From the NCBI GenBank assembly GCA_964016885.1, contig OZ024743.1:225060001-225124000 (forward strand): a stretch of DNA of 64,000 nt, written 5' to 3'. Within the stretch, counting starts at the first letter, position 1, and each line of letters starts with the position of its first letter. Both the position numbers and the translations under genes were made by a program. Positions 1,567-32,962 of the stretch are shown piece after piece. Origin of the DNA: Eledone cirrhosa. Its lineage: Eukaryota. The notes beneath the pieces were generated by a model that was not told where the DNA came from, searched no databases, and worked only from the letters and a program-made list of their open reading frames with translations.

Positions 1567-1611
<45 letters not shown>

Positions 1612-1653
1612 ATGATATTAAATAAATGGAAACTATATTTATAAAACCATATT

Positions 1654-1715
1654 TATTCTATTATATATATTTTAAGGGTACCAAAAACTTTGGTACGCTT
1701 TCATCAGATAAAATA
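1654..1715 (-). ncRNA. Mirror hammerhead copy with GAAA changed to AAAA (predicted inactive)
   Basis: Reverse complement of 1839-1900 with the core substitution at 1673. Confidence 0.75.
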
Positions 1716-1838
1716 CAAAGTGTGTTTTATAAATTTTGACATAGCCAAGGAACATACCTTATCAGTTGAATTTTCCTTGGATAGTCAACTGATAAGGTAT
1801 GTTCCTTGGCTATGTCAAAATTTATAAAACACACTTTG

Positions 1839-1900
1839 TATTTTATCTGATGAAAGCATACCAAAATTTTTGGTACCCTTGAAATATATATAATAGAATA
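1839..1900 (+). ncRNA. Minimal type-I hammerhead ribozyme
   Basis: tattttat-CTGATGA-aag..taccaaaatttttggta..ctt-GAAA-tatata-TA-atagaata; 8-bp stem I, palindromic stem III, AATAAA at 1897. Confidence 0.85.
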
Positions 1901-2245
1901 AATATGGTTTTATAAATATAGTTTCCATTTATTTAATATCATTGAATATTTACTCCAGAAATCTGTCGAGTGCCCTGAATCAGTTATAAACATTTATATT
2001 TGTTGAATTTCCAACAAATTAAATATCCCTTCTGCTTATATATATATATATGATAAGCTTTTGCAGTTTCCATCTACCAAATTTCAGTCACAAGGCATTG
2101 GTCAACCCGACGGTATAGTAGATAATATTTGCCCAAGGTACTATGCTGTATAACTGAACTCAAAGCCAAATGGCTACAAAGTAAAGTTCTTGACCACTCA
2201 GTCATGACTTATACTTATAATAACTTAAGTTTGTCATTAAAAACA

Positions 2246-2506: not shown

Positions 2507-4450
2507 AGGCGTTCGATAGGGTCGACCATGGTTACCTGGATGCGGTGCTAGCGGCGGCAGGCTTCGGACCCGTTTTCAGGGGCTGGATCACTGCTATGCA
2601 CAGCAGCCGCATCTGCTCTAGGGTCAAGGTGAACGGCTACCTCTCGGAGCCGTTCAAAATCGCGCGGTCCATCCGACAAGGGTGCCCTCTCTCCTCCCTT
2701 CTGTATGTGTTGACTCTCGAGCCACTACTGCGGAAGTTGGAGTTGTTGCAGGGCATCCCTTTGGAACCGGGATTGCGGAAAGCGGTGTCAGCCTACGCCG
2801 ATGATGTGACAGTAATGGTGTCGACGGCCTCCGAAATCGAGGCGGTCGGCACCTTACTGGAGGAGTACGAAAAGTTCACAGGGGCTAAGCTGAACCGGGA
2901 CAAGTCGATCGGTTTGCAACTCGGCACGTGGAGGGGCAGACCGATGCCCTCCGATGGCGTCGTCGGACGCTGGACGGAGGGCCCGGTGAAGTTGCTCGGG
3001 GTCTGGTTCGGACCGGACCTCCAGGTGGAGAAAAACTGGGCGGAGGTTACGAACAGGGTGTTTGCACTGACCCAGAAGTGGGCCAGTTGCAAACTATCCC
3101 TGAAAGGTCGGGCGGAGGTGGCGAACACTTATATAGCATCCGTCATCTACTACCGCCTGACCGTAGTGCCCTGCCCAAGGGAAACCCTCACCAAGATGGA
3201 GCGCGCGCTCTTCCAATTCCTTTGGAAGGGGCGGGCTCCTATGGTGAGGAGATCCATCTGCTGTCAACACCCTTCGAAAGGAGGGCTGGGGATGCCGTGG
3301 CTAATGATGCGTAAACACGCATTAAGGCTACGGCACCTCTACGTATTCCTCACCGGACAACCGGTGTGGGCCTCGTTTGTGAGACGAACCTTTCCCAGAC
3401 TCGTCTCACTCACCGAGCTGCAATCCTGGGTCAAGCAAAGACCGAGAAAACTGGGCGCCTGGCACACTGAGTGTGCCCAGGCGCTCACCGCCCTCTGGCA
3501 GGCGGATCCGGTTATCAGTGGAGACTCCACCGCAACATTCTATAGAGGGCTGGTACGCAGCAGGTGCGACGACGCCCTCGGAGAAGCCCTAGACATGGAG
3601 GAGGACGAACTGGCCAGCCTGTTCGGTAGGACATTCAGCCCGGGACCTATGGACAACTTCCAGAAGTCCCTGGCCTGGCAGTGCTACCGAGGGGCTTTAC
3701 CCGTTCGAGAAAGGCTCTACAGACACGGGCGCCCGGGTAGGGACCCCGCCAAAAAGATCTGTCCCAGATGCGTGTGCGACGAGGAAACCGTTGCACACGC
3801 ATTGGTACACTGCTCGGGCGTAGCCGATCTGTGGGGCTATGTCGAACAACTGCTGTCAAGGGTGGGACCGATCCGGTTGACCACCGAGTCTATTGTAATG
3901 ATCAAGCCGCCTCCCCCCTTCAAAGATGAAGCAGAGGCGGTGTTTCTGTGCGTAATAGCCATGGCGAAAGAGGTTGTATGGTGGACGCGTCTGAAAGGAC
4001 TGAGGTCAGGCACCTTTCTCTCTGGCCAACAACTGGTCCGTTTCTTCCGATATCATTTCGGAAGAAGGATCAGGATGGAGAGAGAGGTGCTGCACCCCAG
4101 TCGTTTTTATGAAAGGTGGGTGAAAGTGGCGAGAATGGCCCGTGTGAATGGGCCTTCTCTTTACATAAGCCTGTAGGTGGAAAAGAGGAAGGAACGAGGG
4201 AGCACCCCCTCTCTGTGCTCCTGAGGAAAAGGGTTGCACACTTTTTTCGGGGGTGTGTGCGACCCCCCAAGGCGCCTCCTCTCTATTGAGGATTTTGTTA
4301 AAAATTTTATTTTTTGTTATATCTTATTTTATTTTTATATTTTGTTATTGCCTCCTCCTTATTGAGGACGCCTTTTTGTGTAAACTCCCCCCTTTGTACT
4401 TGTCCCACTTTTGATGCCCTAGTGGCAAATAAAAGAAACTTATCTATCTA
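2507..4450 (+). mobile_element. L1/Tx1-type non-LTR retrotransposon, 5'-truncated
   Basis: Starts at AFDRVDHGYL; IRQGCPLS, AYADD, GGLGMP, C-terminal CPRC..ETVAHALVHC knuckle; 3'UTR ends AATAAAAGAAAC + tatcta; GC-rich versus flanks. Confidence 0.92.
2509..4176 (+). CDS. ORF2 C-terminal part (reverse transcriptase + zinc knuckle), uninterrupted
   Basis: 543-aa ORF in track, extends upstream to the truncation point; no endonuclease domain. Confidence 0.85.
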   Translation, partial: AFDRVDHGYLDAVLAAAGFGPVFRGWITAMHSSRICSRVKVNGYLSEPFKIARSIRQGCPLSSLLYVLTLEPLLRKLELLQGIPLEPGLRKAVSAYADDVTVMVSTASEIEAVGTLLEEYEKFTGAKLNRDKSIGLQLGTWRGRPMPSDGVVGRWTEGPVKLLGVWFGPDLQVEKNWAEVTNRVFALTQKWASCKLSLKGRAEVANTYIASVIYYRLTVVPCPRETLTKMERALFQFLWKGRAPMVRRSICCQHPSKGGLGMPWLMMRKHALRLRHLYVFLTGQPVWASFVRRTFPRLVSLTELQSWVKQRPRKLGAWHTECAQALTALWQADPVISGDSTATFYRGLVRSRCDDALGEALDMEEDELASLFGRTFSPGPMDNFQKSLAWQCYRGALPVRERLYRHGRPGRDPAKKICPRCVCDEETVAHALVHCSGVADLWGYVEQLLSRVGPIRLTTESIVMIKPPPPFKDEAEAVFLCVIAMAKEVVWWTRLKGLRSGTFLSGQQLVRFFRYHFGRRIRMEREVLHPSRFYERWVKVARMARVNGPSLYISL

Positions 4451-8862: not shown

Positions 8863-8897
<35 letters not shown>

Positions 8898-8899
<2 letters not shown>

Positions 8900-9195
8900 A
8901 ACTATAGTTATCTTGCCTGATGGTTTGAACTTTACAACACAACCTGCCTCTTTGAGGTCAAATACCAACCCTACTACCATCTACAAACTGACCAATGAGA
9001 ATCAAGACTATTCCTGCTGACAACAGTAAATTATTCCTAACAAGCTTATATGTCCCAAGGCTCTGATACCATCAACACTATAAACACAGAGCTGGCATAT
9101 CTAAGAACTGACTAACTGCCTGATGAGGTCATAGCCATTCAATGGCTATCATCGAAATATATATAGCAGTAAATAAAGCATTTATGTTTCGTCAC
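8898..9195 (+). mobile_element. Penelope-like element 3' end (GIY-YIG C-terminus + hammerhead)
   Basis: Encodes ..TIVILPDGLNFTT..* (PxGLN ends PLE GIY-YIG domains), then hammerhead and AATAAA; flanked by (TA)n. Confidence 0.7.
9115..9170 (+). ncRNA. Minimal type-I hammerhead ribozyme
   Basis: actgc-CTGATGA-ggtc atagccat tca atggctat catc-GAAA-tatata-TA-gcagt; AATAAA at 9172. Confidence 0.9.
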
Positions 9196-9204
9196 TATAT
9201 ATAT

Positions 9205-29442: not shown

Positions 29443-29904
29443 ATACAACAATTGTGGTTGTATGTGTATTTATGTATGAAGGTGTCGGTGTTTATACCTG
29501 TGCCATAGCTGTGTTTATGTACACATTAGCATATTTGTGTGCGCGTGTTTTTATGTGAAAAAGACATTGCACCTGCGTGTATTTCTACTGATGCACCTAT
29601 GTTGTATAGTTCTTCAGTTACTGGCTAATCTATACTAACAGGACACAGACACAAATGTGTTAATAGTTAATTAACATTTAAATAAAACATCAAGGCTAGG
29701 GTTTATACTATACTAATAAAATGTACTGTAGAGTGCAGCTATAACACGCCACAATAGCATAACATGCAACACATCATAACTCACTGTAGTACACCACATA
29801 CCACAAACCACAACTTATCACATCACACTATAACACACTACATACAACACACCACACCACACATACAACACAGCACAGCAATAACCCTCCATACACCACA
29901 TCAG

Positions 29905-32690
29905 ACAGTAACCACATCAGACAGTAACAACACACCACAACCACAACACACCAGACAGTAACAACACACTGCACTGCTACAACACAACCACAACACACAG
30001 ACAGCACCAACACACTGCACTGCTACAACACACCACAACACAACCACAACACACCAGACAGCAACAACACACTGCACTGCTACAACACAACACAACACAA
30101 CACAACCACAACACACCAGACAGCACCAACACACTGCACTGCTACAACACACCACAACACAACCACAACACACTGCACTGCTACAACACAACACACCAGA
30201 CAGCACCAACACACTGCACTGCTACAACACACCACAACACAACCACAACACACCAGACAGCAACAACACACTGCACTGCTACAACACAACACAACCACAA
30301 CACACCAGACAGCACCAACACACTGCACTGCTACAACACAACACAACACAACCACAACACACCAAACAGCAACAACACACTGCACTGCTACAACACAACA
30401 CAATACAACCACAACACATCAGACAGCAACAACACACTGCACTGCTACAACACACCACAACACAACCACAACACACCACACAGTAACAACACACTGCACT
30501 GCTACAACACACCACAACACAACCACAACACACTGCACTGCTACAACACACCACAACACAACCACAACACACCAGACACCAACAACACACTGCACTGCTA
30601 CAACACACCACAACACAACCACAACACACCACACAGTAACAACACACTGCACTGCTACAACACACCACAACACACTGCACTGCTACACCACACCACAACA
30701 CAACACAACCACAACACACCAGACAGCAACAACACACTGCACTGCTACAACACACCACAACACAACCACAACACACCAGACAGTAACAACACACCACAAC
30801 ACAACCACAACACACCACACAGCAACAACACACTGCACTGCTACAACACACCACAACACACCAGACAGCAACAACACACTGCACTGCTACAACACACCAC
30901 AACACAACCACAACACACCAGACAGTAACAACACACTGCACTGCTACAACACACCACAACACAACCACAACACACCAGACAGTAACAACACACTGCACTG
31001 CTACAACACACCACAAAACAACCACAACACACCAGACAGCAACAACACACTGCACTGCTACAACACAACCACAACACACCAGACAACAACAACACACTGC
31101 ACTGCTACAACACACCACAACACAACCACAACACACTGCACTGCTACAACACACCACAACACAACCACAACATACCAGACAGCAACAACACACTGCACTG
31201 CTACAACACAACACAACACAACCACAACACACCAGACAGCACCAACACACTGCACTGCTACAACACAACACAACACAACCACAACACACCAAACAGCAAC
31301 AACACACTGCACTGCTACAACACAACACAACACAACCACAACACACCAGACAGCAACAACACACTGCACTGCTACAACACACCACAACACAACCACAACA
31401 CACCAGACAGTAACAACACACTGCACTGCTACAACACACCACAACACAACCACAACACACCATAACCACGATACTCCACACAGCAACAACACACCACACT
31501 GCAACAACACACTGCACTGCTACAACACAACCACAACACACCAGACAGTAACAACACACTGCACTGCTACAACACACCAGAACACACCATAACCACGATA
31601 CACCACACTGCAACAACACACCACACTGCAACAACACACCACAACACAACCACAACACACTGCACTGCTACAACACACCATAACACAACCACAACACACT
31701 GCACTGCTACAACACACCACAACACAACCACAACACACCAGACAGCAACAACACACTGCACTGCTACAACACACCACAACACAACCACAACATACCAGAC
31801 AGCAACAACACACTGCACTGCTACAACACACCACAACACACCACACAGTAACAACACACTGCACTGCTACAACACACCACAACACACCAGACAGCAACAA
31901 CACACTGCACTGCTACACCACACCACAACACAACCACAACACACCAGATAGCAACAACACACTGCACTGCTACAACACACCACAACACAACCACAACACA
32001 CCAGACAGTAACAACACACTGCTACAACACACCACAACACACTGCACTGCTACAACACACCACAACACACCAGACAGCAACAACACACTGCACTGCTACA
32101 CCACACCACAACACAACCACAACACACCAGACAGCAACAACACACTGCACTGCTACACCACACCACAACACAACCACAACACACCAGATAGCAACAACAC
32201 ACTGCACTGCTACAACACACCACAACACAACCACAACACACCAGACAGTAACGACACACTGCTACAACACACCACAACACAACCACAACACACCAGACAG
32301 CAACAACACACTGCACTGCTACAACACACCACAATACAACCACAACACACCAGACAGTAACAACACACTGCACTGCTACAACACACCACAACACAACCAC
32401 AACACACCAGACAGCAACAACACACCACACTGCAACAACACAACACATAACACAGCTACATCACAGCACACTGCAACAACACACCACAACACAACCACAA
32501 CACAGCAGACAGCAACAACACACCACACTACAACAACACAACACAGCTACAACATACCGCACAACTCACAACAACAATACACTACACACCACACACAACT
32601 ACACAACTACAACACATTACACAACTACAACACACTGCACAACTACAGCACACTACACAACTACAGCACACTACACAACTACAACACACC
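29905..32690. repeat. Complex CA-rich satellite, modular ~57-bp unit
   Basis: Modules acaacacactgcactgct / acaacacacc / acaacacaacc / agacagca in shuffled order; degenerate at both ends. Confidence 0.95.
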
Positions 32691-32962
32691 ATTTACAAGT
32701 TCATTCAATAATATATGTAAGAGAACAGATATGCTACTATATAGCATCATATGTAATGCTATCTACACAGAATATTGGTTGCAGTAACGTCCACATTTTG
32801 GTGCTATTCATTATATAAGTCTGCAATACTTCTCTGTTATAAGAAACAAATGGATATTGGACATTGTATATGTATGTGGTAGTGTTATTATAATCTATGC
32901 CAACATTGAAAAGCAATTTCTGATGACATACAACCTTATGCATTTATACACTTACACACACA

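What the first reader, a model, noticed from the sequence alone, without database searches (positions are those of the whole stretch)
1611..2037. 333-bp palindrome with two diverging hammerheads, one intact and one core-mutated
Arms of 159 bp surround a 15-nt loop. The plus-arm hammerhead has an intact core with predicted cleavage after 1892. The minus-arm copy has GAAA>AAAA (G12A, a known inactivating change). The loop region ttccttggatagtcaa resembles ttccttggctatgtcaa at 1802, suggesting a template jump. Any read-through transcript forms a long dsRNA hairpin, a candidate ADAR or siRNA substrate that would also sequester the ribozyme.
Basis: partly seen in the sequence, partly recalled or inferred. 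Interest (0 to 1): 0.75.

Follow-up and report, generated by a model that had tools for sequence, protein, structure and literature searches.

The report
Mirror-image Penelope retrotransposon end fragment
This palindrome is one of many mirror-image end fragments of a Penelope-like jumping gene in this animal genome; its two unequal arms were likely copied from two fixed start points on one RNA, and the broken ribozyme in one arm is likely just random decay.

Summary
The palindrome and both hammerhead motifs are real. The locus is not a regulatory device and not a MITE. It is a head-to-head pair of terminal repeats (pLTRs) of a Penelope-like retroelement with Hydra-clade motifs, inserted in (TA)n; copies joined to the RT/endonuclease ORF exist elsewhere. 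This structure is published (PMC8557442, PMC3846280, PMC4209133). G12A occurs in 3 of 163 arms, and the core mutates at background rate. The loop is the element's own 5' end, not a jump from 1802.

What the family adds: arms end at two fixed sites 93 nt apart. Of 33 classifiable pairs picked by a core pattern, 31 have one end of each kind. The same small hairpin motif lies 7 nt past both sites. The likely mechanism is two target-primed cDNAs started at two sites of one RNA and joined at their 3' ends; fold-back is not excluded. This scan reported two-site, twin-hairpin footprints before on other DNA of this genome (e1-9518699, e1-8665316). Transcription and editing of this locus were not testable.

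The parts
1575..1608 (.). (TA)n target microsatellite, left flank
   Evidence: sequence; (TA/CA)n flanks are typical of the family's ends
1611..1785 (-). Inverted pLTR arm, from the inferred transcript start (1785, q-15) to fixed end site A (tail-less end)
   Evidence: L001 arm spans q-15 to site A
1654..1715 (-). Minimal type I hammerhead, left copy, with private G12A at 1673
   Evidence: mirror image of 1839-1900
1744..1780 (-). 5' hairpin of the pLTR, complete only in this arm; predicted, with some compensatory change among subfamilies
   Evidence: (helix 1, 88% of cells paired, 1 of 7 pairs with a two-sided change)
1770..1784 (-). Palindrome 'loop' = first 15 nt of the element, missing from the right arm; arms joined with a 1-nt overlap at 1785
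   Evidence: an equivalent junction (starts q1 and q-15) recurs at L053
1785..2037 (+). Direct pLTR arm plus tail, ending at fixed site B (2037)
   Evidence: the best 30 loci all end at this base
1839..1900 (+). Minimal type I hammerhead: core 1847-1853 and 1881-1884, self-complementary stem III octamer 1884-1891, predicted cut 1892/1893; stem I predicted to extend through 1821-1830 paired with 1907-1916
1945..2037 (+). 93-nt 'tail' between end site A (1944) and end site B (2037); in parent elements it runs on into the 5' UTR and ORF
1952..1971 (+). Hairpin motif RCTCC-N6-10-GTYGAGY 7 nt after site A; a second copy lies 7 nt after site B in parent elements
   Evidence: 26 of 30 read-through copies at each site; the only match in the 64-kb window
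2038..2051 (.). (AT)n target microsatellite, right flank
   Evidence: sequence

Best explanation
The locus is a non-coding, head-to-head pair of terminal repeats of a Penelope-like retroelement with Hydra-clade protein motifs, inserted in a (TA)n run, and it was likely made by two target-primed cDNAs started at two fixed sites on one element RNA and joined at their 3' ends. Shown: family membership, parent ORF, two fixed end sites (A at 1944, B at 2037), one end of each kind per insertion, the same motif 7 nt past both sites, a cluster of 5' ends near q-15, and background-rate decay of the hammerhead core. Inferred: a transcript starts at the Inr-like TCACT at q-15; the RT-endonuclease (probably a dimer) binds the two motifs, nicks both strands of (TA)n and primes one cDNA at A and one at B; both run towards the RNA 5' end on uncleaved RNA, the B-primed one reading through the region already copied; the two cDNA 3' ends join by microhomology or end-joining. 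The hammerhead is a passenger that would need a dimer or protein to cut, and G12A arose after insertion.
For: Family: 40 of 40 scored full-length matches at 96-100% identity, from 3332 candidates; 424 exact matches of a 34-nt core pattern, reversed control 0. Parent: L081 runs pLTR, tail, ORF; L083 runs tail, ORF, 3' UTR, pLTR; ORF pieces show RWR, DKT, YRDD, CxCX5C and CxxC..E..N..CxH, which are the Hydra features in PMC8557442 section 11. Pieces align at 33-42% with a 774-aa Argonauta protein. Polarity: of 75 core-pattern loci 38 were head-to-head: 31 A/B, 2 A/A, 0 B/B, 5 with a decayed end (31 of 33, p=1.3e-7 against 50:50). In 40 loci picked by an A-end pattern I read 19 head-to-head pairs, all A/B. 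Motif 7-8 nt past both ends in 26 of 30 copies at each site. In 41 of 51 A/B pairs the longer arm starts at q-21 to q-6 (at least two, L153 and L171, are longer arms whose 3' UTR did not align). In 10 of 51 pairs the B arm starts at q>=140 while the A arm is complete, as twin priming predicts. At L089 both arms share 6 rare A>G changes, pointing to one template molecule (n=1). In vitro, a Poseidon PLE nicks and extends both strands and starts RT at two internal sites that equal the ends of the tail (PMC11167929, parts 1-2 of 4 read).
Against: No RT start, promoter or cleavage was measured for this family. Pfam finds no RT or GIY-YIG in 6 parent fragments; GIY-YIG appears only below cut-off in 3 of 8 homologues, so the domains rest on motifs read by eye. 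Clade placement is by motifs, with no tree. The exact-pattern counts are unequal, 3172 A ends against 496 B ends. Sampling suggests why: sister subfamilies share the A end but differ in the tail, and 4 of 40 'A' hits were read-through; but 21 of those 40 showed no partner end in view, so the 1:1 rule is shown only for pairs that could be seen. Two A/A pairs exist (L103, L123). Within q53-137 both arms are truncated equally often (5 A, 6 B), so later deletion of palindrome centres could produce the non-overlapping cases. Shared edits at L089 also fit fold-back or arm-to-arm conversion. PMC11167929 found no difference in start site between the two strands in vitro. RNAalifold did not recover the hammerhead fold apart from stem II, and covariation is thin (3 of 37 pairs with two-sided change).
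Confidence: 0.62

Rival explanations
1. Same element, but the palindrome arises by self-priming (fold-back): one cDNA, or an antisense RNA, folds back at the 5' hairpin, is copied back on itself, and is resolved by the endonuclease at site A.
For: Proposed for head-to-head PLE palindromes in PMC3846280 (Discussion read); endonuclease resolution is proposed for the tail in PMC8557442 (passage). Centres cluster at the 5' hairpin. It explains A/B polarity and the shared edits at L089.
Against: In 10 of 51 pairs the A arm holds sequence that the B arm lacks entirely, which needs a later deletion. The same motif at the same 7-nt distance from both ends suggests one process for both. PMC11167929 shows both tail ends are RT starts in a Poseidon element.
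Confidence: 0.23
2. Two separate RNA molecules, one per target strand, are copied by an asymmetric protein dimer that imposes site A on one strand and site B on the other.
For: Fully overlapping arms, as here, are common (32 of 51 pairs have both hammerhead cores) and need no strand displacement under this model.
Against: Six rare A>G changes shared by both arms at L089, and 17 rare shared changes in 55 palindromes in all, though these could come from a common source copy or from conversion.
Confidence: 0.1
3. One reading: a locus-specific regulatory hairpin in which an intact ribozyme is sequestered by a deliberately inactivated antisense copy and feeds ADAR or siRNA pathways.
For: A read-through RNA would form a hairpin of -234.6 kcal/mol. 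An ADAR-like A>G cluster exists in another copy (L089). PLEs give small RNAs in rotifers (PMC3846280).
Against: G12A is rare and core changes run at background rate. The 3 differences between the arms are ordinary for the family (0-9 in 55 palindromes). No A>G in these arms. If the pLTR promoter is at the centre, transcripts would diverge rather than read through (inference).
Confidence: 0.03
4. A TIR-bounded MITE or an assembly fold-back artefact.
For: A long inverted repeat in AT-rich DNA.
Against: The right end runs 93 nt past the inverted arm, the arms differ at 3 sites, the flanks are distinct, and the repeat is joined to a retroelement ORF elsewhere.
Confidence: 0.02

Closest known systems
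Hydra-clade Penelope-like elements (Craig et al. 2021, PMC8557442; passages, section 11 and part 2 of supplementary file 1 read)
   Same: Single short ORF with RW[K/R], DKT, CxCX5C, and CxxC/CxH around E and N; (TA)n targets; hammerhead near the 3' end. Penelope-13_HM is listed with a 5'-truncated inverted copy and hammerheads on both strands. An Octopus family, Hydra-1_Obim, is listed.
   Different: The hammerhead sequence differs from the one listed for Hydra-1_Obim, so this is another family. The tail is 93 nt against the 30-40 bp described. The 3' UTR is about 1.1 kb.
Inverted pLTR with optional tail (Arkhipova et al. 2013, PMC3846280; passages and Discussion read)
   Same: Head-to-head inverted pLTRs, tail on one of them, palindrome at the junction, Inr-like TCACT in the pLTR.
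   Different: That paper favours self-priming on an antisense template. Here the polarity is counted (31 of 33) and non-overlapping arms occur.
PAc Poseidon element, internal RT initiation (Frangieh et al. 2024, PMC11167929; parts 1-2 of 4 read)
   Same: Two RT start sites that bound the tail; both target strands nicked and extended; hammerhead cleavage not needed for insertion; predicted dimer.
   Different: Another clade; start sites lie inside the ORF in an AC-rich stem-loop, here upstream of the ATG with a motif 7 nt downstream of each. No strand preference of site was found in vitro.
Minimal PLE hammerheads (Cervera and de la Pena 2014, PMC4209133; parts 1-2 of 4 read)
   Same: Type I, short palindromic helix III, predicted dimer; pairs of motifs 100-700 bp apart on opposite strands are mentioned; a tested single motif showed no cleavage.
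   Different: Activity of this sequence is untested; stem I may extend through an internal loop.
L1 twin priming (recalled, not from a call)
   Same: Two primers from the two target strands on one RNA give a 5' inversion.
   Different: In L1 the second priming site is variable and arms barely overlap; here it is fixed and overlap is the rule.

Membership tests
EN+ Penelope-like element | Single ORF with RT and C-terminal GIY-YIG endonuclease next to the repeat | tested here: inconclusive
   ORF pieces with RT-like motifs (MDIANYY, MGS, YRDD) and a VVY..YVG region lie next to the pLTR and align over the N-terminal, middle and C-terminal parts of a 774-aa homologue. Pfam gives nothing for 6 fragments and sub-threshold GIY-YIG for 3 of 8 homologues. 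All copies seen are broken.
EN+ Penelope-like element | pLTR in tandem and inverted arrangement | tested here: met
   pLTR before and after the ORF (L081, L083); 60 of 115 loci head-to-head
EN+ Penelope-like element | Tail at only one end | tested here: met
   31 of 33 classifiable pairs A/B; tail 93 nt
EN+ Penelope-like element | Type I hammerhead in the pLTR | tested here: met
   (sequence and pairing only; cleavage untested)
Hydra clade | RWK-type motif, DKT instead of DKG, CxCX5C linker, CxxC and CxH around E and N | tested here: met
   RWR, DKT, CNCRIKSNC or CYCRIKSNC, CKLC..E..N..CRH read by eye; feature list
Hydra clade | Insertion into (TA)n | tested here: met
Hydra clade | Phylogenetic placement of RT with Hydra references | not tested
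   no reference Hydra proteins were held as session sequences
Hammerhead ribozyme (active) | Self-cleavage at the predicted site | not testable with these tools
   monomer active fold is not the MFE; arm starts show no cluster at the cut site
MITE | Terminal inverted repeats at both ends with a TSD | tested here: not met
   right end lies 93 nt beyond the inverted arm; a TSD cannot be read in (TA)n
Non-LTR retrozyme | Tandem monomers each with a hammerhead (definition in 10.64898/2026.07.22.740005, part 1 of 5 read) | tested here: not met
   two opposed single copies here; the repeat is the pLTR of a coding element

The most novel reading that the evidence does not exclude
Penelope-like elements insert by fixed-site twin priming: one protein dimer grips two tandem copies of a small hairpin on a single RNA, starts one cDNA 7 nt in front of each, one per target strand, and when the RNA begins at the pLTR promoter both run off its 5' end and fuse into a short lopsided palindrome. 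This would explain the one-sided tail and the head-to-head inverted pLTRs with one rule and name the cis signal.
Probability: 0.5. Interest if true: 0.6.

Novelty: new member of a known kind. Interest (0 to 1): 0.3.

Why it matters
The locus itself is an ordinary dead transposon fragment. The family matters because how PLEs form inverted pLTRs and tails is stated as open (PMC8557442). A counted one-of-each rule for the two ends, and a motif at a fixed distance from both, turn that into a direct in vitro test. The scan has already noted the same footprint on other DNA of this genome, so this locus adds a replicate in a coding family, not a new kind.

Tried and rejected
Rfam: no hammerhead family at either threshold; only hairpin-shaped miRNA matches below gathering score. 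RNA runs: no RNA holder listed. Contigs of 4 runs of unrecorded kind show the family in bulk and C at 1673 as the majority letter (17419 of 18999 depth in X1), but no piece spans the locus, so they say nothing on this copy or on expression. Template jump from 1802: rejected. G12A as design: rejected. Genome-wide count of palindromes by a gapped pattern could not be run, so counts come from fetched loci. A 1:1 genome-wide count of A and B ends failed (3172 against 496) because the patterns do not cover subfamilies equally. A pseudoknot between the two downstream motifs was considered; folding gave nested structures. Atlas look-ups gave no answer. An ORF-like stretch antisense in the 3' UTR matched only what look like further copies of the same 3' UTR (those loci were not inspected). 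Literature: a search for Penelope + twin priming + inverted + retrotransposon gave 2 papers whose listings are about other subjects (listings only); a search for Penelope, head-to-head, tail, pLTR, both strands gave 5 papers, two of them read in part. The library lacks most subscription papers, so absence from print is not shown. Supplements of PMC11167929 (its Fig. S1-S2 on start sites) and the alignments and figures of PMC8557442 were not seen and may bear on polarity and clade.

Full report
Coordinates: q = window position minus 1784, so q1 = 1785. Site A is q160 (1944) and site B is q253 (2037).

Observation. The palindrome is as described: 159-bp arms at 1611-1769 and 1785-1943, a 15-nt loop and 3 mismatches. 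My motif scan of the 64-kb window gave two hammerhead candidates, at 1847 and 9120 on the plus strand, with the cut predicted after 1892 for the first. Rfam has no match for it. Stem III is 2 bp with a self-complementary octamer, and the active monomer fold is 3.8 kcal/mol above the MFE. This is the dimer-type minimal hammerhead described for PLEs; a single motif tested there did not cut (PMC4209133). G12A is reported as active but slow (PMC2553840, abstract).

It is a repeat family. The genome is 3.0 Gb, and the closest named protein is from Argonauta, so a cephalopod is likely. The right arm has 3332 candidates; all 40 scored gave full-length matches at 96-100%. A 34-nt core pattern has 424 exact matches and its control none. 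The best 30 loci all end at q253 before a TA-rich run, and many have an inverted partner ending near q160.

The parent. Sequence upstream of the repeat is itself a family (1893 candidates). In L081 the repeat runs through the tail into an ORF; L083 reads tail, ORF, about 1.1 kb of 3' UTR, repeat. The ORF pieces carry RWR, DKT, YRDD, CxCX5C and CxxC..E..N..CxH, the features listed for the Hydra clade (PMC8557442 section 11). They align at 33-42% with a 774-aa homologue. Pfam does not confirm the domains: nothing relevant for 6 fragments, and GIY-YIG only below cut-off in 3 of 8 homologues. The supplement of PMC8557442 lists an Octopus Hydra family with a different hammerhead, and Penelope-13_HM with an inverted 5' copy and hammerheads on both strands. 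Inverted pLTRs with a tail at one end are described as typical, and opposite-strand hammerhead pairs 100-700 bp apart are mentioned in PMC4209133.

The loop is the reverse complement of the element's first 15 nt; the left arm is complete from q-15, the right arm starts at q1, and they overlap by one base. The likeness to 1802 comes from a 5' hairpin of the pLTR that is kept among subfamilies. G12A is in 3 of 163 arms. In the 72 arms from L001-L050, core positions changed at 13 of 790 and other positions at 105 of 7740 (p=0.52; 18 overlapping or duplicate loci were dropped first). The 'intact' arm has two G>A changes of its own in stem II and its loop. Arm differences of 0-9 are usual among 55 palindromes. 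Among the 23 aligned arms (21 loci from sister subfamilies plus the two window arms) the hammerhead and hairpin pairings hold in 94.5% of cells, with a covariation score above all 500 shuffles but only 3 of 37 pairs changed on both sides; RNAalifold preferred another fold apart from stem II. So the ribozyme is kept in the active lineage and decays after insertion.

End polarity. Of 75 loci chosen only by the core pattern (79 fetched, 4 duplicates dropped), 38 were head-to-head: 31 A/B, 2 A/A, no B/B, 5 with a decayed end; 31 of 33 gives p=1.3e-7 against 50:50. Exact end patterns then gave 3172 A against 496 B ends, which looked like a contradiction. I fetched 40 of the first A hits: most belong to sister subfamilies at 83-93% identity whose tails vary, 4 were read-through rather than ends, 19 had a visible partner and all 19 were A/B, and 21 showed no partner end. 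The pooled automatic count on 115 loci gave 51 A/B, 2 A/A, 0 B/B, 7 unclassified and 55 without a pair; its p-value is inflated because 40 loci were chosen for an A end.

A signal at both ends. Prompted by earlier finding e1-9518699, I looked behind each site in 30 copies that read through into the ORF. The motif RCTCC-N6-10-GTYGAGY was present in 26 of 30 behind A and 26 of 30 behind B, 7-8 nt behind A and 7 nt behind B wherever my script placed the end correctly; 1 and 3 values were mis-placed. It occurs once in the window, at 1952, and folds as a small hairpin.

5' ends. In 41 of 51 A/B pairs the longer arm starts at q-21 to q-6, where the family reads TCACT or CCACT; an Inr-like TCACT is described in rotifer pLTRs. 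A transcript start there is inferred, not measured. Arm starts do not cluster at the hammerhead cut site, and 32 of 51 pairs keep both cores, so uncleaved RNA was likely the template, in line with PMC11167929.

Mechanism. In vitro, a Poseidon PLE nicks and extends both strands and starts RT at two internal sites that bound the tail. The simplest reading here is twin priming at fixed sites on one RNA. It explains the A/B rule, the shared motif, the 10 of 51 pairs whose B arm starts at q>=140 beside a complete A arm, and the six A>G changes shared by both arms at L089. Fold-back with resolution at A explains the rule and L089 too, and needs later deletions for the non-overlapping cases; these cannot be excluded, because in the range where both arms can be scored they are truncated equally often.

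dsRNA, ADAR, siRNA. Not testable for this locus: no RNA holder was listed and the contigs do not span it. Its arms show no A>G in the stable columns. One other copy has an ADAR-like cluster inside hammerhead stem I, so element RNA may be edited at times.

Verdict. A real but ordinary Penelope-like inverted pLTR pair: about 0.95 for what it is, about 0.6 for the twin-priming route. New member of a known kind; interest 0.3.

Noticed in passing
L089:844-1286 (G000:C1:338188176-338190176): Both arms of this palindrome share six rare A>G changes in the element's sense, clustered in hammerhead stem I and including the cleavage-site base; looks like an ADAR-edited template copied into both arms.
   Followed up: partly
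window 9115-9170 (+), within a (TA)n-flanked piece about 8895-9197: A second minimal hammerhead of unrelated sequence with the same stem III octamer; likely another Penelope-like family. It lacks the RCTCC..GTYGAGY motif.
   Followed up: partly
L007:1766-1912 (+): A 49-codon ORF-like stretch with one stop lies antisense in the family's 3' UTR just upstream of the pLTR. From memory it resembles the N-terminal region of other PLE proteins; a search found 150 matches that look like copies of this 3' UTR.
   Followed up: partly
window 2509-4173 (+): 555-codon open frame of a non-LTR retrotransposon RT fragment, GC-rich (identity read by eye).
   Followed up: no
L013, L014, L017: Complex junctions with several repeated fragments of the 5' hairpin region, suggesting repeated template switching at the RNA 5' end.
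   Followed up: no
L067 and L069 (G000:C1:211834536 and 212309504): The same insertion with the same junction occurs twice about 475 kb apart, probably a segmental duplication.
   Followed up: no
window about 29900-32800: Long low-complexity tandem array with extreme GC and AT skew.
   Followed up: no
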